Shown: piece after piece, positions 5,628 to 58,333 of the stretch
Numbering within the stretch: the first letter of the stretch is position 1
Layout of the letters: each line of letters opens with the position of its first letter
Source: Octopus vulgaris
Lineage: Eukaryota
Reading direction: 5' to 3'
Length of the DNA stretch: 64,000 nt
Assembly (NCBI GenBank): GCA_951406725.2
Contig: OX597815.1
Location: 207,514,001-207,578,000 of the forward strand
Program-made: the position numbers and the translations under genes
Notes under the pieces: generated by a model
What the model saw: only the letters and a program-made list of their open reading frames with translations
Told to the model about the DNA's origin: nothing
The model's database searches: none

Positions 5628-6481
5628 GGATCTTTTCCCTTTCAACGGCAGATACAGAAATTAACTTTTTGTAACTAAACACTTTCAAACTTCGGACACT
5701 GGTAGTATGTGTCATATAAAACATCTTTTACTCTTAGTGTTGTTGAGAAAAGTTTCTATTTTCAAAGTTATTTCGTGTTAAAACTGTTGTATTTCGGTAA
5801 TTTCAACCAATCAATGACGTGTATTCAGCTGAATAAAATTACTGCCATTGTTTGTCAACAACAACTATCGGCGGTGTATATTTCGTTTGCCACTGTTATT
5901 TATGACATCGTTCGTGCGTTTGTACTGGTTTTAGCTTTAGGGTTTTAGGGTTAGGGTTATGGTTTTAGGGTTTTAGGGTTGGGATTTAGGGTTAGGGTTT
6001 TAGGGTTAGAGTTACGGTAAAAAGGGAAAAATGAAGAAATTGGAGAGGAGGGGCAAAAAAGTTTTTCCGAAAATAGTAGCTGGAAAACAGGGAAAAAAAA
6101 CTAAAAGCAGTAGAAATGCACGAATAATTGTGGTGGTGCCATGAAGTAAACATGCTTCAAATACACTCGTTTATTTATACAAACGTAACTGAGATGAAAT
6201 ATGTCATAAATAACAGTGACAGATGGAAAATACACCGCCGGAAGTTGTTGTTGACGAACAGCAGCAGTAATTTTATTCAGCTGAATGCACGTCATTGATT
6301 GGTTGAAATTACCGAAATACAACAACTTTAACACGAAATAACTTTGAAAATAGAAACTTTTCTCAACAACACTAAGAGTAAAAGATGTTTTATATGACAC
6401 ATTCTACCGGTGTCCGAAGTTTGAAAGTGTTTAATTACAAAAAATTAATTTCTCGATCTGCCGTTGAAAGGAAAAAGATCT
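5628..6481. mobile_element. Fold-back MITE with ~280-bp inverted arms, 8-bp TSD and telomere-like core (Merlin- or MULE-like)
   Basis: Arms about 5628-5908 and 6201-6481 are reverse complements, which explains the mirror ORFs MSYKTSF; TSD ATATATTC at 5620-5627 and 6482-6489; starts GGATC. Confidence 0.9.
5937..6012 (+). repeat. Degenerate TTAGGG/TTTTAGGG telomere-like array inside the MITE
   Basis: TTAGGGTTTTAGGGTTAGGGTTATGGTTTTAGGG... read directly. Confidence 0.9.
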
Positions 6482-27480: not shown

Positions 27481-28996
27481 TAGTTAGTTAGTTGGTTAGT
27501 TAGTTAATTTGGCTCAAAAGCAAATAGCAAGGCCATGTAGGGGGACATGGAGTTAAGTACAGGGTGGTGTTCATGTAAAGAGTTCAGGCCACTTGAGGTC
27601 CAGGGAGGCTTTGAACAAAGCGGTCGTCGGCATCTTCACCATCTCGTCTGGCAGCTTGTTCCACGGATCCGCAACCAGGACGGAGAAAGCTCCTCTCCTT
27701 CGATTGAGATGAAATCGTCGCAGGTAGAGCTTTTCGGAATGACCCCGCAGCCGACGCTCTGGAGCAGGAGTGAAGAATAGCTCTTTCGAGAGGTTACACT
27801 TTCCGCTTATAATGTTGTGGGCGAGAATGAGATCACCACGGCGGCGGCGTTTTTCAAGAGAATAAAGGTCGAGGGTCCTCAGCCTTTCTTCGTAGGACAA
27901 ATTTTTGAGACCATGAACCATGCGGGTAGCCAGCCTCTGGACTCTTTCGAGGTGCTGTATGTCTTTGAGGAGATAAGGAGAAGAGGCCTGAATCCCATAC
28001 TCCAATATGGGTCTCGCCAGCGTGACATAGAGTGGTAGGAATATGGCTGCTGTGAGCATTCCGAATGACCGTCGAATCAAGAACAGAATTCCGCGTGCTT
28101 TGTTGGCAGCATGGACGCACTGGGCCGAAGGCGAAAAGAAGGAATCCACCAAGATACCCAGGTCCTTTACCTGATGGGTCCTCTCCAGCAGCAGACGACC
28201 CGGCTCGAAATCAAGTTGAGTTGCAGGAGTAGAGCCGACAGGCAGATGACAGCACTTTGACACGTTCAGACACAGGTCCCAATCGTTAGACCACTTCCAA
28301 ATTTGGTGGAGGCATCGACGAAGATCCTCTATATTACCGCGAGGAGCGACCAGTTTGATATCGTCGGCAAATAGAATGGTGTGTTGCGTTAGGTCGTCGG
28401 GCAAGTCATTTATGAAGACTAAGAACAACAAGGGCCCAAGCACTGAACCTTGAGGCACGCCACTGCTCGCACTGGAGACGTCGGACCGCGAACCATTAAC
28501 TTGGACTTGGAAGGAGCGATCTGAGAGGAAGGCACCAACCCATCGTATAATATCCGGATGGAAACTATATGCTTGAAGCTTGACAAGTAATAGGCGGTGG
28601 TTTACCGAGTCAAAAGCTTTGGCAAAGTCCAATAAAACGATGTCAACAGCATCACTATCATCGAGGATGCGCGTCACCAATTCTTCCATTACTAGTAAGT
28701 TGGTCAAGCATGATCTCTTCGGCACGAAGCCGTGTTGGGAATCAGAGATAGAGGCTGTGTTTAGGAGGTGGAGCATCATACTTTTCTTAAGGATGGTTTC
28801 GAACATCTTGCTGATTATTGATGTAAGGGAAACCGGTCGGTAGTTAAGCGGGTCTTCGCGGCTCCCTTTCTTGAAAATTGAGCAGATTATCGCTGTTCTC
28901 CAGTCTGCAGGTATAACAACCGTCGCCAATGACATATTGAATAGTCGTGTTAAGGGCTCGCAGATGACCGGAGCCAACGCTTTGATAACCCGTGGG
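27481..28996 (-). mobile_element. CR1-clade LINE, 5'-truncated, (TAAC)n tail
   Basis: Contains the intact RT frame; short 3' UTR then (AACT)n repeats; sharp junctions inside the Tx1 UTR. Confidence 0.92.
27571..28977 (-). CDS. CR1-type reverse transcriptase, partial ORF2 (468 aa, no endonuclease domain)
   Basis: Motifs NYRPVSLTS, QHGF, LDFAKAFDSVNH, SGVPQGSVLGPLLF, LFADD, KDLGI, LERVQRLATR; frame stays open up to the truncation point, so the annotated start is not a true start. Confidence 0.93.
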   Translation of the reverse strand: MAPVICEPLTRLFNMSLATVVIPADWRTAIICSIFKKGSREDPLNYRPVSLTSIISKMFETILKKSMMLHLLNTASISDSQHGFVPKRSCLTNLLVMEELVTRILDDSDAVDIVLLDFAKAFDSVNHRLLLVKLQAYSFHPDIIRWVGAFLSDRSFQVQVNGSRSDVSSASSGVPQGSVLGPLLFLVFINDLPDDLTQHTILFADDIKLVAPRGNIEDLRRCLHQIWKWSNDWDLCLNVSKCCHLPVGSTPATQLDFEPGRLLLERTHQVKDLGILVDSFFSPSAQCVHAANKARGILFLIRRSFGMLTAAIFLPLYVTLARPILEYGIQASSPYLLKDIQHLERVQRLATRMVHGLKNLSYEERLRTLDLYSLEKRRRRGDLILAHNIISGKCNLSKELFFTPAPERRLRGHSEKLYLRRFHLNRRRGAFSVLVADPWNKLPDEMVKMPTTALFKASLDLKWPELFT

Positions 28997-29045
28997 TGTA
29001 ATTTGTTCTATCTGTGTGCAGCCCTGTGTGGCTAATAAAGAAACA

Positions 29046-29345
<300 letters not shown>

Positions 29346-29665
29346 CAATTTTTTTTCTGAGGAAATTACAAACCCATCACAGTTTAATTAATTACGTATC
29401 AACTATGCAATAAGGCTACAAATAATCTCATTAGTTGAAATTTACAGAAAAACAAAAGACGAAGACAGGTATACATTATTTACATTATTTACATTTAAAG
29501 TTTTTAAAGTAACAGTATATTCAAAGTTTCATCGCTGCCAATTTGTCATTGGATATATGCATTTATACGTTTATGTGTGTAGGTATACATATGCGTATAT
29601 ACTTGTGTATATGTATGTGTAGGTGTATGTAAGTATATATATGCGTGTTTGTGTCCGTGTATGTA

Positions 29666-30650: not shown

Positions 30651-30950
30651 GCATTTTTCTATCTATCTATCTATCCCTCCCTCCATCTGTCTATTTATTT
30701 GCCCACTTATGTATCCATCTCTATGCGTCTCTCTCCATATGTCTCTCTGTCTATCCATATATCTACGTATCAAGAATTTATATCTCTCTCAGTCTATCGA
30801 TTTAGCTATCTATCGGTCTATTTATTTATCTAATTATCTATTCATTTATCTATCCATACAACTATATATCCATGAATTTGTTTATCTTTTTCATCTACCT
30901 GTCTTTTTATCTATTTATTTATAATTTATCCATCTCTCTCTCTCTCTCTT

Positions 30951-31016
<66 letters not shown>

Positions 31017-31191
31017 CAATAGAAACTTAGGTAAATAGATGAATGGGTAAAAAGACAGCTATTCAGATACAAAAGACTAACAATGAGTCATAAATTTTAA
31101 TAGGTAGGCGGGCTATGTGAAAAGGTTGGTTAATATTTGGGTGCGGGTGGCTAACGATATATGTATGTATATGTAAGTTTTTTTGTATTAT

Positions 31192-31230
<39 letters not shown>

Positions 31231-31244
31231 ACTTCCTTGTGTTA

Positions 31245-31281
31245 CCTTCTGTTGAAGAGCGTAGGCTCGAAACGTAAAAGA
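31245..31281 (+). ncRNA. Minimal hammerhead-like motif with variant core
   Basis: CCTT-CTGTTGA-A-GAGCgtagGCTC-GAAAC-GTA-AAAG; core A6 replaced by T; the downstream sequence recurs inverted at 29432-29472. Confidence 0.5.
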
Positions 31282-31356
31282 CTTACCTTCCCGAGTGTCA
31301 AACACTTGCTTGTCGTTTATACACCTGTCTTTGTCTTTTGTTTTTCTGTAAATTTC

Positions 31357-31433
<77 letters not shown>

Positions 31434-31749
31434 GAACATTATTACTCATGAGAGATAACAATGTTAGTGGCCGCAAGCTTAAAACCGTAAAGACAAAATT
31501 AGTAGATATATATATATAAGAATTATATATAACAAGGGTACCAAGAAGCACCAGCTTTGCTAAAAATAAGAGTAAAATATAGGAGTGACTTCGGAGTATT
31601 TCTTTACTCCTATTTTTAGTAAGGTTGGTGCTTCTTGGTGCCCTATATATATAGGGGCGCATACGGTGCATTATATAGAACAAATAAGGATGTCAGTGCT
31701 CATTACAGATTGTAGAGAATATTTTATTGAGACTGAAGCTGAGGGTTGC

Positions 31750-31790
31750 TTCGCGACTCGAGTTTCACGCATTTTAGATCTTCAGGCGAA
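31750..31790 (-). ncRNA. Minimal type I hammerhead motif, stem II decayed
   Basis: TTCGC-CTGAAGA-tctaaaatgcgt-GAAAC-TCGA-GTC-GCGAA: perfect 5-bp stem I, palindromic stem III, GUC triplet. Confidence 0.7.
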
Positions 31791-31872
31791 ATCGCAGTGG
31801 CGTGAATGTCGAGTTGCAAGACAAACCCTCCTCTATACATGTGTGTGTGTGTGTGTGTGTGTTAAATAAAAG

Positions 31873-32431
31873 GAGACAACAAAGCCAAGGCAGTGTGAAA
31901 TTTCTAAGACATTTATAAAGAGAAAAGTAGTCTTAACAGCTGTTTCAGGGATATAAAGGATATCTCCTCATCAGAGACGATATGTGAGAGTTAAATAGTT
32001 GAGTTCAATATAAGAAGTTATTTGGGAAAAGGAGAGATAAAAGAAGTATAAAGGGAAATGTGAGAATAAAGATATATACTGGATGCTACACGTCCAGTTT
32101 CATTATCCAAGGAAGGTGCTGTGTAGAATGAGTAAAGAGGCTTCTTGCCCGTGGTATATCGCCTCTCTACCCATTCTATACAACACATTTCTTGGATAAT
32201 GGAATTTTAACTGTAACATCCAACATATATTTTTATCCTCATATTTCTCTTTATACTTCCTATTTCTCTCCCTTTCCAAAATAACTTCTTATACTGAACT
32301 CTACTATTTACTTCTATTTAACTCTCTTATATCGTCTCTGATGATGTGATATCCTTTATACCCCTGAAACAGAATTTCTTTCTCTTTATAAATGTCCTAG
32401 AAATTTCACACTGCCTTGGCTTTGCTGTCTC
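31873..32431. mobile_element. ~560-bp palindrome, Penelope-like inverted terminal repeat with a hammerhead motif in each arm
   Basis: Arms 31873-32141 and 32161-32431; CTGATGA...GAAACAG in both arms. Confidence 0.8.
31930..31978 (-). ncRNA. Minimal hammerhead motif
   Basis: GTCT-CTGATGA-GGAGATATcctttATATCCCT-GAAAC-AGCT-GTTA-AGAC; one extra T at the cleavage triplet. Confidence 0.65.
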
Positions 32432-32509
32432 ATACTATTATCGAACCAGGAGTCTAACACAGCACTTACACAGCCTTACCTGCATTTTGGGTCTTCTGGA
32501 TACCAAAAC

Positions 32510-32555
<46 letters not shown>

Positions 32556-32687
32556 AGTTCAGTCAAATTTAGATTCAGATAAATATGGTACTTAAGTTGA
32601 AGGCAGCAGAATTTAGTATGGTATTATCCATATAATTTAAAATAAGGTGATTATAATCAAAATAAGCAACAAGGATATCCAGAGGTA

Positions 32688-32776
32688 ATGCAGTACGATC
32701 GTTTCATGCGACTCCATTTAATTGAACAATGCAAACATTACATCAATTTAAAATGTAGAGCAATCTTCAGCTGCAT
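32688..32776 (-). ncRNA. Type I hammerhead motif with long stem II
   Basis: ATGCAG-CTGAAGA-long imperfect hairpin-GAAAC-GATC-GTA-CTGCAT: perfect 6-bp stem I, intact core, GUA triplet. Confidence 0.75.
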
Positions 32777-32989
32777 AAAAATATAGAATTTAGTTAAATT
32801 CAAAGGACTCATTTGTATAATTTATTTTATCCCTCTGTGTCTTAAACGTATACGATTTTTATTCGTCGTAATTTACAATGCATTTTTCATTTATTACATA
32901 GATATGTATATACACTTAAATACCTACTTACGTATTCATATACATATATATAAGTACGAATTTATATTATATATATATATATATATATA

Positions 32990-33439
32990 TAGTACGCTTA
33001 TATATTTGTTGTGCAAGATTTTTTATGTGAAGTCGTGTGTTGAAACAGATATTGTTATATTTCGGAATATATAATACGTGTGTTTTTATTGGCTAAACTG
33101 GCAAAATGACATTCCGAAATATAACAACATGTGGCTGTGTGGTAAGTAGCTTGCTAACCAACCACATGGCTCCGGGTTCAGTCCCACTGTGTGGCATCTT
33201 GGGCAAGTGTCTTCTGCTATAGCCACGGGCCGACCAAAGCCTTGTGAGTGGATTTGGTAGACGGAAACTGAAAGAAGCCTGTCATATATATGTATATATA
33301 TATATATAGTACGTTTATATATTTGTTGTGCAAGATTTTTTATGTGAAGTCGTGTGTTGAAACAGATATTGTTATATTTCGGAATATATAGTACGTGTGT
33401 TTTTATTGGCTAAACTGGCAAAATGACATTCCTAAATAT

Positions 33440-33447
<8 letters not shown>
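32990..33447 (+). repeat. ~140-bp direct repeats flanking the 5' half of a SINE A
   Basis: 32990-33130 matches 33307-33447; SINE A head at 33131-33290. Confidence 0.88.
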
Positions 33448-33490
<43 letters not shown>

Positions 33491-33802
33491 AGAAAACGTA
33501 CACGTATTCACACACATTAATACCTATCTCTATGCTTTATGTGTGTGTGTGTGTGTGTGTTGGCTGTGCACATGATCTCGTACACTTATACACACATACC
33601 AATATACTTAAGTATCATCTCTGACTACTCTGTTACTGCTGACACAATGCAATCAATCACATGGGGAGAGTGGATGAAATTGTAAGCTAGGGAGCGAGAG
33701 TGAGGGAGGAAGGGAGTAACAGCTCGGTTGTGAGAATGCCAGACTAGCCATCACTCTGTGTTTATGTATGAGAGCGTTTGGTATGAGCACAAATATATAC
33801 TC

Positions 33803-37449: not shown

Positions 37450-40040
37450 TCGCTAGAGGCTTGGGAAAAGAAGAAGAGAAAGACGTCGAATTTTGTGGAA
37501 GCAAGGGAACCCCAAATAAGAGAAATCAACTTGAATGACATTGGTATCTATAAAGAAATTTGAACAAGGGAGAGACAAAATTTTAAAGTGTCTCCTCCCC
37601 CAGGAAGGTTGCAGTATGAACGTGAAAAAGTCATCTATTATAGAACTTACTCTGTAAAAGAGATGAAAATCTGTATAATGGAGATTGGCTTGATTGAAAA
37701 GGCACTGCAACTAATATGGAAGGAGGTGACATACCTCAACAAGACACGTAAATTTGGAACCGTGGAGGTGCACTTCTGAGATGCAGCCACCGTCAGGCTA
37801 CACTTTGCGACACCAATGAAAACGGAAGAGTGGGTGCTTCTACCCGTGTTTCCAGAGTAAGGATAGATGATATTCCCCCGTAAATTGATGTAGCCTGGGT
37901 GGTGGATGCAATCCTGCTAGGAGTAAAGGATAAAATCACTGTTCTACAAGCAACGTATACTTAGTGCGACCCTCCACGAGGAAGAGGAGGAGGAAGCAGC
38001 AACAACAACCGCAGCATCAACGTCAACAACAACTCAAGAAGGTAGTAGCAGCAACAATGAAGAGAAAGAGGAGGAGTGGTCTTCCATAAAAAGGAAAAAT
38101 ACACAGATTACCCCAACAAAACCTTCCACCACTAAGAAAATGAATGCTAATAAGCCAAAAACAACAAACTTGGACGAAAACCTAATGGCCGTTAAGGCCG
38201 CAAATAATAGACTTTTGAACAGTTGGCAGTCATTTCGATAAAATTTTAACCAAAGACATACATCTATATAAAATTGACCGGAAAAATTACGGAAGAATTC
38301 CTAAATGACATCAGGTCATGGAATTTAGATGTTATTGTTGCTACTGAAACCTGGATAAATGGGCCAAAAGACCTGCTCTTGCTCTTGGACGGTTATGAGA
38401 TATTCATTTCTTCAGGCCATCCTTCAGGCGGAAGTGGGGTGTTGGTCCTAATAAAAAAAACGGGTTTCAGAGAAAAACTTAATTTTTTCTGATCCAGAAG
38501 GTAGGCCCATCACTCTGCTAAACACAGATCTGAAGATTTTGGCCAAGGTGTTATCCAAAAGGTTGGCGCATGTCGCGGATGGTTTGGTCGGGGAGGCACA
38601 GGCATGTGTCATTCCCGCTAGAACCATTCAGGATAATCTCCACATTCTACGCTACATCGTAGAGGGATTTAATAGTAAACCTGGCAAGGGTTGGGTACTG
38701 GTCCATTTAGACCAAGCAAAAGCTTTCGATAGGGTTGACAATCGTTACCTGGTGTCGATCCTCGCGCAGTTCGGCCTGGGTCTTGGCTTCATTAGGTGGA
38801 TCATATCAATATATGACAACATTGACTCAATCGTTTGGGTGAACAGTTTTCTGTCAAAGCCGTTCTGTAGCAAACGCTCAGTTCGCCAAGGTATCGACTC
38901 TCCCCGCTTTTGTATGTGTGGGCTCTTGAGCCATTGCTGCGAAAGTTGAGTGGCATCTCGAGGGAGCCAGGTTGTGTGAAGTCGGTTTCAGCATACGCGG
39001 ACATCACCATCATCGTGACCGAGGGTAGGCGAGGCCATTAAGGATTAGGAGACGGTGGCAGGAGCAAAGATTAATCGTGGACAGTCAGTTGGCTTGCAGC
39101 TCAGCACCTGGAGAGGCAAGTCGATGTCTCCTGACAGCGTTGTGGGACGTTGGGTTTGATTAAGTTGTTAGGGGTCTGGTTTGGTCCAGACCTCCAAATA
39201 GAGAAGAACTAGGCTGAGGTATCGAGAAGGGTGACCCACGTAGTCAAGACCTGGTCTTGGCGGTGGCTATCCCTGAAAGGGAGGGCGGAAGTGGCCAATA
39301 TGTTTATCGCATCGGTCATCATTTACCGCCTGGCTGACGTTCCTTGCTCTGATTCGTGGTTAATCGAGCTGGAAAGACAGATCTTCCACTTCTTGTAGAG
39401 GGCTCGAAACCGCTTGTGAAACCCTCTATTTGTTGCCAAGAACCGTTAAAGGGTGGACTAGGGATGCCTTGGCTGTTGATGCGCAGACATGCACTGAGGT
39501 TGAGGTATCTGCAGCTCCAGCTGGATGGTGAACGGGTGTGGTCTCCGCTTGCGAAGCATATGTTTCCCAAGTTCACTAGTTTCGGTGGGCGGGAAACCTA
39601 GTTCCATCGTAGATCGAAGTTGGATACATGGTTTACGGAGTGCCGTAAGGCTCTCTTGCTATTCTGTCGCTCGGGTAATGCCAGCGGTTTACCCACATCT
39701 TTCTATAGAAGGATGGCAGATACCTTAGAGGAAACCCTAGGTCTCGATGATAATCAGCTGGCCAGTCTGTTCCAACGAACATTCGAGCCTGGATAACTTT
39801 CAGAGTTATATGGATTGGCAATGTTACCGAGGAGCCTTGCCCGTTCAAGATAAGCTCACAAGAGACAGTTTTCACGGCCCATTGACCTGCCCAAGATGCG
39901 GGCGGGACAGGGAAACCGTCCTGCATGCTATTGTTCAGTGCTCGGAGGTGTCGGACGTGTGGGCTTATGCTGAACAACTGTTGCCGAGCACTAGAAGAGT
40001 ACAGCTGTCGTCTGAGTCAATTCTAAAAATTGACCTACCT
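37450..40040 (+). mobile_element. Decayed, internally deleted Tx1/L1 LINE (ORF1, APE, RT and zinc-finger remnants)
   Basis: LDVIVATETW (APE); RPITLLNTDLKILAKVL, LDQAKAFDRV, SVRQG, AYAD (RT); GGLGMP; CPRCGRDRETVLHAIVQC; frameshifts throughout. Confidence 0.88.
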
Positions 40041-41066
40041 TCAGTACGGGGACACATGAAAGCTACGTGTCCCCAGGAACACGAAGAGGAGGAGATAGAG
40101 GAAGAACAAGAAGAAGAGGTTTCAACAGTAGAGGAGCAAAGTATGGAAGAACAGTACACAGTAGTGAAGAGGAAGAAGAGTAACGCGGACTACCAAAAAG
40201 TTCTAGGAAGAAAAGAAAAGGAAACTGAGAGAAGACGCAGAGCGTGAAACAAGGAAAGACGAACGAACAGAGAACAAATGAAAGGCCAACAAAAGTAGTT
40301 GAAGAGGTCGAAGAACGAAGAGAGAAACCGTTACCAACAAATAGTACGGAGGAGAAAGTACAGAAGAAAAAGGAAGTAGAAAGAGAAATTATAACAATAA
40401 AGAATGAGAGACATACAGAGATAGAAATACCAGCAACAGTAGAATAGATTGGTGAAGAACATCAGAGAGAGACACCGAAAGGAAAATAATTAAGAAATAT
40501 GATACAACACACACAAAAAGTGTAGAGATAGAAAAAAAAAGATTGTGAAAATGAAGAATGTAATTAGAATTAAATTATTACCCAACGAGAACAATGTAGA
40601 TTTGAAAGTTGTTTTGCTGGAGAGAGAGAGAGAGAGAGAGAGAGGAGAACGGTTAAAGAAATTGTTTGGCGAAAAGTTAGAAGTGACACCGGTAGAGTAT
40701 CGTTTTGATGAATTGTCGCCGGTGGTGGTACTCGAAGATTTAACGGAGTATTTGGTGTTAAATGAGGGTAAGTGAGGCAATTTTAAGAACAGAATAATTA
40801 GTGACTTTGTGCAAATTTTAAAAAAAAAGGGAAAAAAGGGAGAACCAACAGATACAAGACAGAATATTGAATTGTTAGTAAAACGTTATAAACAAACAGT
40901 AAAAAGAAACTGCCTTTTGGGGGACAGATCAGTCATTCCTTCCTCATTCTTCATTGTAACCAGAATTTCATACGATATATGTTTTTATGTACCCCCACTG
41001 TATTGTTTTGTATGTCCTTGTACTGCCCCCTCTCTATAAGGGCTATGTGCTCAATAAAAGAAATAA
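40041..41066 (+). mobile_element. Tx1-related ORF1-only derivative, 5'-truncated
   Basis: GHMKATCP knuckle end, E/K-rich frame, 3' end TTTGTATGTCCTTGT...AATAAAAGAAATAA similar to Tx1 ends. Confidence 0.6.
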
Positions 41067-58150: not shown

Positions 58151-58199
<49 letters not shown>

Positions 58200-58333
58200 T
58201 CAACATTTTAAAACTGTTGTAATACTTGCAACATTTAATAAAATGATGTAGCGTGAAACGATCGTACCAAATTACCGAAGTTATTCTTGTTGCTTATTCT
58301 GATTATGTGTGTGTGTGTGTGTGTGTGTACGTG

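What the first reader, a model, noticed from the sequence alone, without database searches (positions are those of the whole stretch)
31245..32776. Four different minimal hammerhead motifs packed into 1.6 kb
Seen: CTGANGA...GAAAC(palindrome)GTH motifs with closing stem I at 31750-31790 (-), 31930-31978 (-, partial mirror at 32334-32372) and 32688-32776 (-), plus a variant-core motif at 31245-31281 (+). Their stems and flanks are unrelated, and they are separated by (GT)n/(TA)n/(CT)n tracts and inverted repeats. Known: minimal type I hammerheads with palindromic stem III mark Penelope-like terminal repeats and related small retroelements, and can cleave as dimers. Inference: an insertion hotspot for several non-coding, ribozyme-bearing retroelement families; three point the same way and could cut a minus-strand transcript.
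Basis: partly seen in the sequence, partly recalled or inferred. Interest (0 to 1): 0.72.

Follow-up and report, generated by a model that had tools for sequence, protein, structure and literature searches.

The report
Penelope-type hammerhead relics in microsatellites
This 1.6-kb stretch holds copies of four unrelated short repeat families that each carry a small hammerhead (self-cutting RNA) motif of the kind known from Penelope-like jumping genes; most copies here are decayed, they were likely pasted into simple-sequence repeats by Penelope enzymes, and the pattern is already described and common in this genome.

Summary
The motifs are at the stated coordinates. Two of them (31749-31791 and 32688-32776, minus strand) pass a strict minimal-hammerhead descriptor that dinucleotide shuffles of the window almost never satisfy. 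Each of the four motifs belongs to a different non-coding interspersed repeat family of this 2.8-Gb genome. Three families give 1,600-2,400 first-look candidates; the fourth is smaller. Typical family copies show complete type I hammerheads with a palindromic helix III. Family 1 carries U instead of A at core position 6 in 22 of 25 copies. In the window only motif 4 still matches its family; motifs 1, 2, 3 and the mirror copy have lost a helix or the cleavage site. The families show the known marks of Penelope-like elements (PLEs): 5' truncation, head-to-head inverted partners, and 3' ends abutting microsatellites. The genome also holds thousands of RT+GIY-YIG PLE loci with a hammerhead in their terminal repeats. 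No coding partner was found for these four families, no RNA evidence could be obtained, and Rfam models do not score them. The local density is well above a 600-kb background sample, which fits microsatellite targeting. This matches Cervera and De la Peña 2014. Earlier notes of this scan describe the same pattern in other windows of this genome. Verdict: real, ordinary, low interest.

The parts
31218..31359 (+). Family 1 element, about 150 nt and non-coding. Its own 5' TC-rich start is expanded into (TC)n from 31196. Its 3' end ...TTTCAAC abuts (TG)35.
   Evidence: 1628 first-look candidates, 40 scored, 84-87% identity; alignment of 25 copies.
31245..31281 (+). Motif 1, a hammerhead-like motif with U at core position 6 (CUGUUGA). 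It has an extra A, helix II GAGC/GCUC, GAAA, 4-nt palindrome ACGU and a GUA site. The window copy lost one U of the helix I 5' strand, which is CUUU/AAAG in typical copies.
   Evidence: U6 in 22 of 25 copies, A6 in 2, 1 unmatched.
31360..31429 (.). (TG)35 microsatellite at the 3' end of the family 1 copy.
31670..31791 (-). Family 2 element, an old family at 70-90% identity. The hammerhead lies at its 5' end and an A-rich stretch lies about 40 nt downstream of the cleavage site.
   Evidence: 22 candidates; alignment.
31749..31791 (-). Motif 2: core, helix I (6 bp), palindrome ACUCGAGU and GUC site are intact. Helix II is destroyed by 5 substitutions relative to typical copies such as L037, which have CGC/GCG.
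31792..31836 (+). Inverted, 5'-truncated partner of the family 2 copy, placed head-to-head. It lacks the CUGANGA box.
   Evidence: the window row L021 and 7 other loci show the same arrangement.
31840..31861 (.). (TG)11, which is (CA)n on the sense strand, at the 3' end of the left family 3 arm.
   Evidence: AC-type repeats follow 7 of 16 family 3 copies.
31862..32157 (-). Family 3, left arm of a head-to-head inverted dimer.
   Evidence: inverted repeats I1-I3; 2366 first-look candidates, most copies are single units of about 290 nt..
31930..31978 (-). Motif 3, a family 3 hammerhead. It has two substitutions in the 5' strand of helix II and a 1-nt insertion at the cleavage site (GUU-A instead of GUA).
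   Evidence: compare row L070_1777 with typical rows such as L074_1501.
32161..32442 (+). Family 3, right arm. Its hammerhead (32334-32372) has lost about 14 nt that cover helix III, the cleavage site and the 3' strand of helix I.
   Evidence: row L070_1786.
32510..32554 (.). (CT)9(TA)13 microsatellite at the 3' end of the family 4 copy.
32556..32823 (-). Family 4 element, a young family. The window copy is the long-3'-end form and is 5'-truncated near 32823.
   Evidence: 2063 first-look candidates, 40 scored at 98-100% identity..
32688..32776 (-). Motif 4, the only copy here that matches its family. It has helix I of 6 bp, CUGAAGA, a 58-nt helix II region closed by UGC/GCA between two unpaired U, GAAA, palindrome ACGAUCGU and a GUA site.
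   Evidence: the predicted dimer adopts the double-hammerhead pairing; 14 of 20 family copies pass the strict descriptor.

Best explanation
The four motifs are real hammerhead-type sequences that sit in four unrelated, non-coding interspersed repeat families, which were likely copied into microsatellites by the reverse transcriptase and GIY-YIG endonuclease of Penelope-like elements (PLEs); the copies in this window are mostly decayed relics and are predicted not to cut RNA here.

Shown:
- Each motif is part of a repeat family.
- Typical family copies carry a complete type I minimal hammerhead whose helix III is a 4-8-nt palindrome.
- Helices I and II differ completely between families, while the core boxes stay the same.
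- Copies are 5'-truncated.
- Copies often have an inverted 5'-truncated partner placed head-to-head.
- Copies end at a microsatellite.
- The same genome holds thousands of RT+GIY-YIG loci whose terminal direct repeats carry a hammerhead about 100 nt before a 3' end that abuts (TA)n.

Inferred:
- In a master copy arranged as a partial tandem (as seen for the related 353-nt family in locus L173), two hammerheads of one transcript would pair through the palindrome into a double hammerhead.
- They would cut after GUH and release unit-length RNA.
- A PLE enzyme supplied in trans would nick a microsatellite and reverse-transcribe that RNA.
- Template switches would then give the tandem and inverted forms.
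- After insertion the copies decay neutrally.
For: Non-random motifs:
- 0 of 300 shuffles reach the 2 observed palindromic hits.

Family membership and hammerheads of typical copies:
- own-genome searches; alignments.

Helices change between families while the core is kept:
- Family 4 has helix I AUGCAG/CUGCAU.
- Its 75%-identical relative in L101 has AAUUGG/CCAAUU, with G10.1-C11.1 restored.
- About a dozen further families in a 600-kb background sample have unrelated helices.

Helix II, which my descriptor did not require:
- At least 3 bp in 15 of 18 background hits and at least 4 bp in 9 of 18.
- Shuffles give roughly 25% and 10%.

Pattern search:
- The family 2 half-pattern has 108 exact genome matches against 0 for the reversed control.

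Head-to-head partners:
- 9 of 40 family 4 places have an inverted partner within 250 nt, and all 9 face 5' end to 5' end.
- The same arrangement holds for family 2 and for the family 3 dimer in the window.
- L173 shows an inverted stub, then 1.75 tandem units of 353 nt, then (TA)n.

Microsatellites at 3' ends:
- Family 1: 19 of 24 copies. Family 3: 9 of 16. Family 4, long form: 6 of 7.
- Random 45-nt stretches: 11.8%.
- 13 of 18 background hammerheads have a microsatellite within 300 nt downstream, against 31% of random positions.

Autonomous PLEs in the genome:
- 6136 GIY-YIG first-look candidates; 148 of 150 scored lie over Pfam's cut-off.
- Four of four fetched elements have a 781-aa frame. 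The one scanned against Pfam (L105) has RVT_1 and GIY-YIG; three of the four have 456-557-bp direct terminal repeats at 99-100% identity.
- A U3-A8 core-variant hammerhead lies in 11 of 16 PLE loci examined.

Published descriptions:
- The marks above match PMC4209133 (main text parts 1-2 read) and PMC8557442 (passages read).

Predicted dimers:
- The family 4 window copy and a family 3 copy form the intermolecular helix III and swapped helix I.
Against: - No sequence link between any of the four families and a coding PLE was found. The 781-aa PLE shares no BLAST similarity with them. The family 1 and 4 copies lying near PLE loci are separate insertions.
- Longer family 3 copies reach only about 650 nt and hold no ORF.
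- Rfam gives no hammerhead match: none at gathering score in the window, none at E up to 10 in the region, and none among the 150 rows listed for 8 loci with typical copies (33 further rows were not shown).
- Within family 2, pairing is barely above shuffles on 36 copies: 71.9% paired against 69.5% (17 of 500 shuffles as high), and covariation score 0.228 against 0.203 (62 of 500).
- Single-strand folding energies are unremarkable, with z from +1.25 to -0.94.
- The helix II junction departs from the published minimal hammerhead. Families 2, 3 and 4 have an unpaired U on both sides of helix II. Families 2 and 4 do not keep G10.1-C11.1.
- Family 1 has U6, a position regarded as essential (my knowledge of the hammerhead core).
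- The microsatellite type is family-specific: AC for family 3, AT for families 1 and 4. This could also mean templated tails, as in some LINE/SINE pairs.
- There is no RNA or cleavage evidence.
Confidence: 0.75

Rival explanations
1. The families are SINE-like elements mobilised by LINE reverse transcriptases, and they merely carry a hammerhead motif, as first proposed for metazoan non-LTR retrozymes.
For: - They are short, non-coding and 5'-truncated, with family-specific simple-repeat 3' junctions.
- LINE-type RT ORFs lie in the window at 27571-29007 and 38455-38949.
- An octopus repeat annotation lists 893 unclassified SINE families (PMC13282606, passages). That this window comes from that species is not established by my calls.
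Against: - The head-to-head 5'-truncated partners and partial tandems are described as PLE marks (PMC8557442, passages).
- The minimal hammerhead with a palindromic helix III is the PLE type (PMC4209133).
- PLEs are abundant and young in this genome.
Confidence: 0.13
2. The motifs are chance matches to a loose consensus in AT-rich, repeat-rich DNA.
For: - With the loosest descriptor, 49 of 300 shuffles give 2 or more hits.
- Motif 1 lacks the canonical core and motif 2 lacks helix II.
- One other descriptor hit in the window (5672-5770) looks like chance.
Against: - 0 of 300 shuffles reach 2 palindromic hits.
- Typical copies of all four families show complete helices.
- The background holds 18 hits per 600 kb, against a mean of 1.0 in shuffles.
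- The pattern search gives 108 matches against 0 for the control.
Confidence: 0.01
3. The cluster is a functional host unit in which a minus-strand transcript is processed by three co-oriented ribozymes.
For: Motifs 2, 3 and 4 lie on the minus strand within 1.03 kb.
Against: - Motifs 2 and 3 are damaged relative to their families.
- The three palindromes are not mutually complementary.
- All three are ordinary members of dispersed families.
- Family 2 copies decay about as shuffles predict.
Confidence: 0.03
4. The 31862-32442 palindrome is a foldback or MITE-type DNA transposon, not a retroelement pair.
For: It is a 575-bp inverted repeat with 82-92% complementary arms. Generic hairpin miRNA models match its centre.
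Against: - Most of the 96 matches are single units of about 290 nt; only C6:12040113 (and partly C8:26690963) is a dimer like the window's.
- Units are 5'-truncated to varying degrees.
- Units end at (CA)n.
Confidence: 0.03

Closest known systems
Minimal type I hammerheads (min-HHR) in the pseudo-LTRs of metazoan Penelope-like elements (Cervera and De la Peña 2014, PMC4209133; main text parts 1-2 read)
   Same: - Type I order, with helix I short or medium.
- An extra nucleotide after A9.
- Palindromic positions 15.2-16.2 or loop 3, so that only dimers give a stable helix III.
- Thousands of dispersed single copies per genome that fall into many sequence families.
- Pairs 100-700 bp apart on opposite strands.
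- A U3-A8 core variant, seen here in the coding PLE.
   Different: - Families 2, 3 and 4 have an unpaired U on the 3' side of helix II as well.
- Families 2 and 4 lack G10.1-C11.1.
- Family 4 has a 58-nt helix II region.
- Family 1 has U6.
- None of the four families was found inside a coding PLE.
PLE insertion architecture (Craig, Yushenova, Rodriguez, Arkhipova 2021, PMC8557442; passages read)
   Same: Strong 5' truncation, partial tandems, an inverted 5'-truncated copy at the 5' end, an insertion bias for microsatellites with (TA)n preferred, and the hammerhead near the 3' end.
   Different: Here the units are 150-650-nt non-coding elements. Family 3 ends mostly at (CA)n. Target-site duplications were not examined.
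Metazoan non-LTR retrozymes (Cervera and De la Peña 2020, PMC7229834, passages; Li, Clavereau, Pollet 2026 preprint 10.64898/2026.07.22.740005, abstract and section 14)
   Same: Short non-autonomous elements with type I hammerheads that co-occur with PLEs and are proposed to derive from PLE terminal repeats. The related 353-nt family forms tandems with one hammerhead per unit.
   Different: Retrozymes are defined by tandem arrays and mostly canonical hammerheads with loop-loop contacts, expressed as circular RNA. The window copies are single or inverted, minimal in type, and without RNA evidence.
Rfam hammerhead families (RF00163 and relatives)
   Same: The same catalytic boxes.
   Different: No match at any threshold tried. 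The coding PLE's own terminal-repeat hammerhead is not picked up either among the rows shown, so these models do not cover the minimal type.

Membership tests
min-HHR of metazoan PLEs (PMC4209133) | Core boxes CUGANGA ... GAAA ... UH in type I order | tested here: met
   Met for motifs 2, 3 and 4 and for typical copies of their families. The window copy of motif 3 has one extra U after U16.1.
min-HHR of metazoan PLEs (PMC4209133) | Core boxes, for motif 1 / family 1 | tested here: not met
   CUGUUGA: U at position 6 in 22 of 25 copies, A in 2, 1 unmatched. All other features of family 1 fit.
min-HHR of metazoan PLEs (PMC4209133) | Helix I of about 4-6 bp closing the motif | tested here: met
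   6 bp for motifs 2 and 4. 4 bp (GUCU/AGAC) in typical family 3 copies. 4 bp (CUUU/AAAG) in typical family 1 copies, reduced in the window copy.
min-HHR of metazoan PLEs (PMC4209133) | Helix II hairpin | tested here: inconclusive
   Typical copies have CGC/GCG (family 2), 7 bp (family 3), GAGC/GCUC (family 1) and only UGC/GCA for family 4, where shuffles reach 3 bp in 26.5% of trials. The window copy of family 2 has lost it.
min-HHR of metazoan PLEs (PMC4209133) | Unpaired nucleotide between A9 and 10.1 | tested here: met
   U in families 2, 3 and 4, and A in family 1.
min-HHR of metazoan PLEs (PMC4209133) | Conserved G10.1-C11.1 pair | tested here: inconclusive
   Kept in families 1 and 3. 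Family 2 has C-G and family 4 has U-A. An older family 4 relative in L101 has G-C.
min-HHR of metazoan PLEs (PMC4209133) | Palindromic 15.2-16.2 / loop 3 (dimer-type helix III) | tested here: met
   ACUCGAGU, ACAGCUGU, ACGAUCGU and ACGU.
min-HHR of metazoan PLEs (PMC4209133) | Location in the terminal repeat of an element encoding RT + GIY-YIG | tested here: inconclusive
   Not found for the four families. Found for the genome's 781-aa PLE, which carries a different hammerhead. The paper itself reports that most motifs are dispersed single copies.
min-HHR of metazoan PLEs (PMC4209133) | Self-cleavage as a dimer | not testable with these tools
   Only a thermodynamic dimer prediction was possible. 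No RNA runs with raw reads were available.
PLE-type insertions (PMC8557442) | 5' truncation, an inverted 5'-truncated partner or partial tandem, and a microsatellite at the junction | tested here: met
   (9 of 9 pairs head-to-head).
Metazoan non-LTR retrozymes (PMC7229834) | Tandem repeats of 170-400 nt, each with a type I hammerhead | tested here: not met
   No tandem copy in the window. A related family forms 353-nt tandems elsewhere.
Rfam hammerhead families | Score at or above the gathering threshold | tested here: not met
   0 matches in the window. No hammerhead row at E up to 10.

The most novel reading that the evidence does not exclude
These are discrete, ribozyme-bearing parasites of Penelope-like elements (dispersed relatives of retrozymes) that use a hammerhead junction not described so far, with an unpaired base on both sides of helix II. 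One of them amplified to well over a thousand copies with a U6 core that should be catalytically dead. If so, Penelope-type retrotransposition does not need hammerhead cleavage, and the fold serves another purpose, such as recognition by the reverse transcriptase.
Probability: 0.2. Interest if true: 0.55.

Novelty: new member of a known kind. Interest (0 to 1): 0.2.

Why it matters
It adds four sequence families, and one dense locus, to a pattern published in 2014 and already noted many times in this genome by this scan. Three modest points could be worth a bench test:
- the both-sided unpaired base at helix II;
- the abundant U6 family, a natural test of whether cleavage is needed for spread;
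- the link between these elements and the very high microsatellite content of this genome.

For annotation, such short elements should be labelled as PLE-associated hammerhead repeats and not as unclassified SINEs or miRNA-like hairpins.

Tried and rejected
- Rfam at gathering score on the window gave 0 matches. At E up to 10 on 31100-32900 it gave 25 rows, none a hammerhead family; they were generic miRNA-hairpin models on two inverted repeats. On 8 loci with typical copies and a coding PLE it gave 183 rows, of which 150 were shown, with no hammerhead family among them. I read this as a limit of the models, not as evidence.
- RNA evidence: the look-up of sequencing runs listed no holder on record as RNA, and every run is kept as contigs. 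Laying 4 runs gave contig cover of 32556-32835 but no information on RNA ends, strand or cleavage.
- Within-family covariation on 36 family 2 hammerheads was weak.
- Single-strand folding z-scores were unremarkable.
- The search for a coding partner compared the four families with 16 PLE loci. Only separate insertions of families 1 and 4 turned up. Following longer family 3 copies upstream gave about 650 nt without an ORF.
- The upstream-flank microsatellite counts are not valid, because my queries started inside the elements. Only the 3' flank counts are used.
- The BLAST-library density is biased. The four window families are in the library by construction, and 13 of its 19 entries come from the background sample.
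- The protein-atlas search on the PLE ORF gave look-alike clusters with HTH_animal, DUF8422, GIY-YIG and RVT_1. This is a lead only.
- The organism was not identified by my own calls. 'Octopus-like' comes from earlier scan notes.
Full report
**Observation.**

The region was read directly.
- Motif 2 (31749-31791, minus strand) has a 6-bp helix I, CUGAAGA, GAAA, the 8-nt palindrome ACUCGAGU and a GUC site. It has no helix II.
- Motif 4 (32688-32776, minus strand) has a perfect 6-bp helix I (AUGCAG/CUGCAU), CUGAAGA, GAAA, the palindrome ACGAUCGU and a GUA site. Its 58-nt helix II region is closed by three pairs.
- Motif 3 (31930-31978, minus strand) has CUGAUGA, a 7-bp bulged helix II, GAAA and the palindrome ACAGCUGU. 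It has one base too many before helix I.
- The mirror of motif 3 (32334-32372, plus strand) is the other arm of a 575-bp inverted repeat.
- Motif 1 (31245-31281, plus strand) reads CUGUUGA.

A descriptor of my own found only motifs 2 and 4 in the whole window, on both strands. Over 300 dinucleotide shuffles:
- the loosest setting reached two hits in 49 of 300;
- the setting with a palindromic helix III reached two hits in 0 of 300 (mean 0.017 per window);
- adding helix I of at least 6 bp gave a mean of 0.003 per window.

Rfam gave nothing at gathering score and no hammerhead row at E up to 10.

**Each motif belongs to a repeat family.**

The window is G000:C2:207514001-207578000 in a 2.8-Gb genome. 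Candidate counts below are lower bounds, not copy numbers.

| Motif region | First-look candidates | Scored | Identity |
|---|---|---|---|
| Motif 4 | 2063 | 40 | 98-100% |
| Motif 1 | 1628 | 40 | 84-87% |
| Motif 3 palindrome | 2366 | 40 | mostly single units of about 290 nt |
| Motif 2 | 22 | 22 | 70-90%, homology centred on the hammerhead |

Alignments show that typical copies carry complete hammerheads.
- Family 2: helix I of 6 bp, CUGAAGA, U, CGC, a 4-nt loop, GCG, U, GAAAC, UCGA, GUC.
- Family 3: GUCU, CUGAUGA, U, a 7-bp helix II, U, GAAAC, AGCU, GUA, AGAC.
- Family 4: identical to the window copy.
- Family 1: CUUU, CUGUUGA, A, GAGC, loop, GCUC, GAAAC, GUA, AAAG.
- Family 1 has U at position 6 in 22 of 25 copies and A in 2.

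Against these, the window copies are damaged.
- Motif 2 has five substitutions in helix II.
- Motif 3 has two helix II substitutions and an inserted U at the cleavage site.
- The mirror arm lost about 14 nt, including helix III and the cleavage site.
- Motif 1 lost one base of helix I.
- Only motif 4 is intact relative to its family.

The strict descriptor is passed by 9 of 22 family 2 copies, 9 of 23 family 3 copies, 14 of 20 family 4 copies and 1 of 25 family 1 copies.

**Are the hammerheads under structural constraint?**

Within family 2 the signal is weak. On 36 copies, 71.9% of cells pair against 69.5% in shuffles (17 of 500 as high). The covariation score is 0.228 against 0.203 (62 of 500). 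This is what neutral decay of dead copies would give.

Between families the picture differs.
- A 75%-identical relative of family 4 in L101 has helix I AAUUGG/CCAAUU instead of AUGCAG/CUGCAU.
- That relative closes helix II with GUAC/GUAC, while the core and the palindrome are unchanged.
- In a background sample of 60 stretches of 10 kb taken at fixed coordinates, the strict descriptor found 18 hits, against 0-4 (mean 1.0) in ten shuffles.
- Those hits come from about a dozen families with unrelated helices.
- Helix II was not required by the descriptor, yet it has at least 3 bp in 15 of 18 hits and at least 4 bp in 9 of 18. Shuffles give roughly 25% and 10%.
- A pattern for the family 2 type has 108 exact genome matches and none for the reversed control.
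- Single-strand folding is unremarkable, with z from +1.25 to -0.94.
- Predicted dimers of the family 4 window copy and of a family 3 copy adopt the double-hammerhead pairing, with intermolecular helix III and swapped helix I. The family 4 dimer is at -45.0 kcal/mol against -35.2 for two monomers.

**Link to Penelope-like elements.**

The genome gives 6136 first-look GIY-YIG candidates. Of 150 scored, 148 lie over Pfam's cut-off, and by my count 16 have a 781-aa open frame. Four fetched elements show the following.
- They are about 5.2 kb long.
- All four have the 781-aa frame.
- The one scanned against Pfam (L105) has RVT_1 (28.9 bits, just under the 29.6 cut-off) and GIY-YIG (30.6 bits).
- Three of the four have direct terminal repeats of 456-557 bp at 99-100% identity.
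- The 3' end abuts (TA)n.

A hammerhead with the U3-A8 core variant and the palindrome ACAUGU lies about 100 nt before that end. It was found in 11 of the 16 PLE loci examined.

The four window families share no sequence with this PLE, but they share its habits.
- Of 40 family 4 places, 9 have an inverted partner within 250 nt. All 9 face 5' end to 5' end, and 7 of the 9 partners are 5'-truncated.
- Family 2 shows the same arrangement in the window (31792-31836) and in 7 other loci.
- The family 3 palindrome in the window is such a head-to-head pair.
- Coverage plots show graded 5' truncation.
- 3' ends abut microsatellites in 19 of 24 family 1 copies, 9 of 16 family 3 copies and 6 of 7 long-form family 4 copies.
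- Random 45-nt stretches contain a microsatellite 11.8% of the time.
- A young relative of family 2 in L173 shows the full complex form. It has an inverted 5'-truncated stub, then 1.75 tandem units of 353 nt with one hammerhead each, then (TA)n.
- In L098 and L100 a family 1 copy sits in the same (TA)n as the 3' end of a coding PLE.

These marks are the ones published for PLEs and their minimal hammerheads.
- PMC4209133 (main text parts 1-2 read) describes an extra base after A9, palindromic 15.2-16.2, thousands of dispersed single motifs, pairs 100-700 bp apart on opposite strands, the U3-A8 variant and low dimer activity.
- PMC8557442 (passages) describes 5' truncation, partial tandems, an inverted 5'-truncated copy at the 5' end, and a microsatellite bias with (TA)n preferred.
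- A 2026 preprint argues that animal retrozymes are non-autonomous PLE derivatives (10.64898/2026.07.22.740005; abstract and section 14 read).

**Hotspot claim.**

- Microsatellites of at least 14 nt cover 6.1% of the background sample and 12.4% of 30800-33600.
- The strict rate is 18 hits per 600 kb, about one per 33 kb. About 0.05 would be expected in 1.6 kb, and 2 are observed.
- A BLAST library of 19 hammerhead families found 36 copies in 600 kb, never more than 2 within 1.6 kb in any of the 60 loci. The region has 5 copies from 4 families.
- That comparison is biased, because the window's own families are in the library by construction.
- Of 18 background hits, 13 have a microsatellite within 300 nt downstream, against 31% of random positions.

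So the crowding is real and is most simply explained by several microsatellite-seeking insertions into a microsatellite-rich patch. More than 1,000 windows of this genome have been read in this scan, so a few such patches are expected.

**What the copies can do here.**

- The three minus-strand palindromes differ, so mixed dimers would pair at only 4 of 8 positions.
- Two of the three motifs are damaged.
- No tandem partner exists in the window.
- Cleavage of a local transcript is therefore not expected. An intact family 4 RNA could in principle pair with RNA from other family 4 loci.
- No RNA evidence could be obtained.

**Differences from the published type.**

- Families 2, 3 and 4 have an unpaired U on both sides of helix II. 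About 8 of the 18 background hits show such a two-sided mismatch.
- Families 2 and 4 lack G10.1-C11.1.
- Family 4 has a long helix II insert.
- Family 1 has U6.
- I could not view the figures or supplements of PMC4209133, which may show such variants.

**Earlier notes of this scan.**

Searches returned notes that describe the same pattern in other windows of this genome. They report PLE hammerhead stubs at TA microsatellites and a U6 family, and they call the genome octopus-like. My analysis was independent of them and agrees. I did not test the organism label.

**Verdict.**

These are new members of a known kind, of low interest.

Noticed in passing
window 31526-31653: A 128-nt near-perfect hairpin flanked by TATATA. 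Its roughly 60-nt arm recurs as paired inverted termini 370-575 nt apart elsewhere (80 first-look candidates). It looks like a MITE-type DNA transposon reduced to its two terminal inverted repeats. This explains the generic plant-miRNA Rfam hits.
   Followed up: partly
L173:1398-2102 (G000:C1, around 91563133): A young relative of family 2 with the same helix III and GUC site. It is arranged as an inverted 5'-truncated stub, then 1.75 tandem units of 353 nt with one hammerhead each, then (TA)n. This is a retrozyme-like partial tandem.
   Followed up: partly
L105:430-5672 (G000:C16, around 20838796): A full coding PLE. It has a 781-aa RT+GIY-YIG frame, 456-bp direct terminal repeats at 99.3% identity, a U3-A8 core-variant hammerhead about 100 nt before the 3' end, and (TA)n on both flanks. 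The genome gives 6136 GIY-YIG first-look candidates.
   Followed up: partly
window 58195-58306: A 77%-identical relative of family 4 on the opposite strand, which is the only other hammerhead-family copy found in the window outside the region. A 41-nt family 1 fragment lies at 29433-29473.
   Followed up: no
window 27571-29007 (-), 38455-38949 (+), 39741-40247 (+): Open frames with RVT_1 (114 and 48 bits) and zf-RVT, that is, LINE-type retrotransposon remnants near the cluster.
   Followed up: no
background loci L109-L168: Microsatellites of at least 14 nt occur about once per 0.5 kb and cover 6.1% of 600 kb sampled at fixed coordinates. Different hammerhead families end at different repeat types: AT for families 1 and 4, AC for family 3.
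   Followed up: partly
window 5672-5770 (-): A descriptor hit with the U3-A8 core, a 72-nt spacer and a 6-nt palindrome. It is not part of any family I looked at and is probably chance.
   Followed up: no
window 32550-32840: Words of family 4 are held by public runs labelled with four different coded organisms (A-D). The family is therefore probably shared by related species.
   Followed up: no
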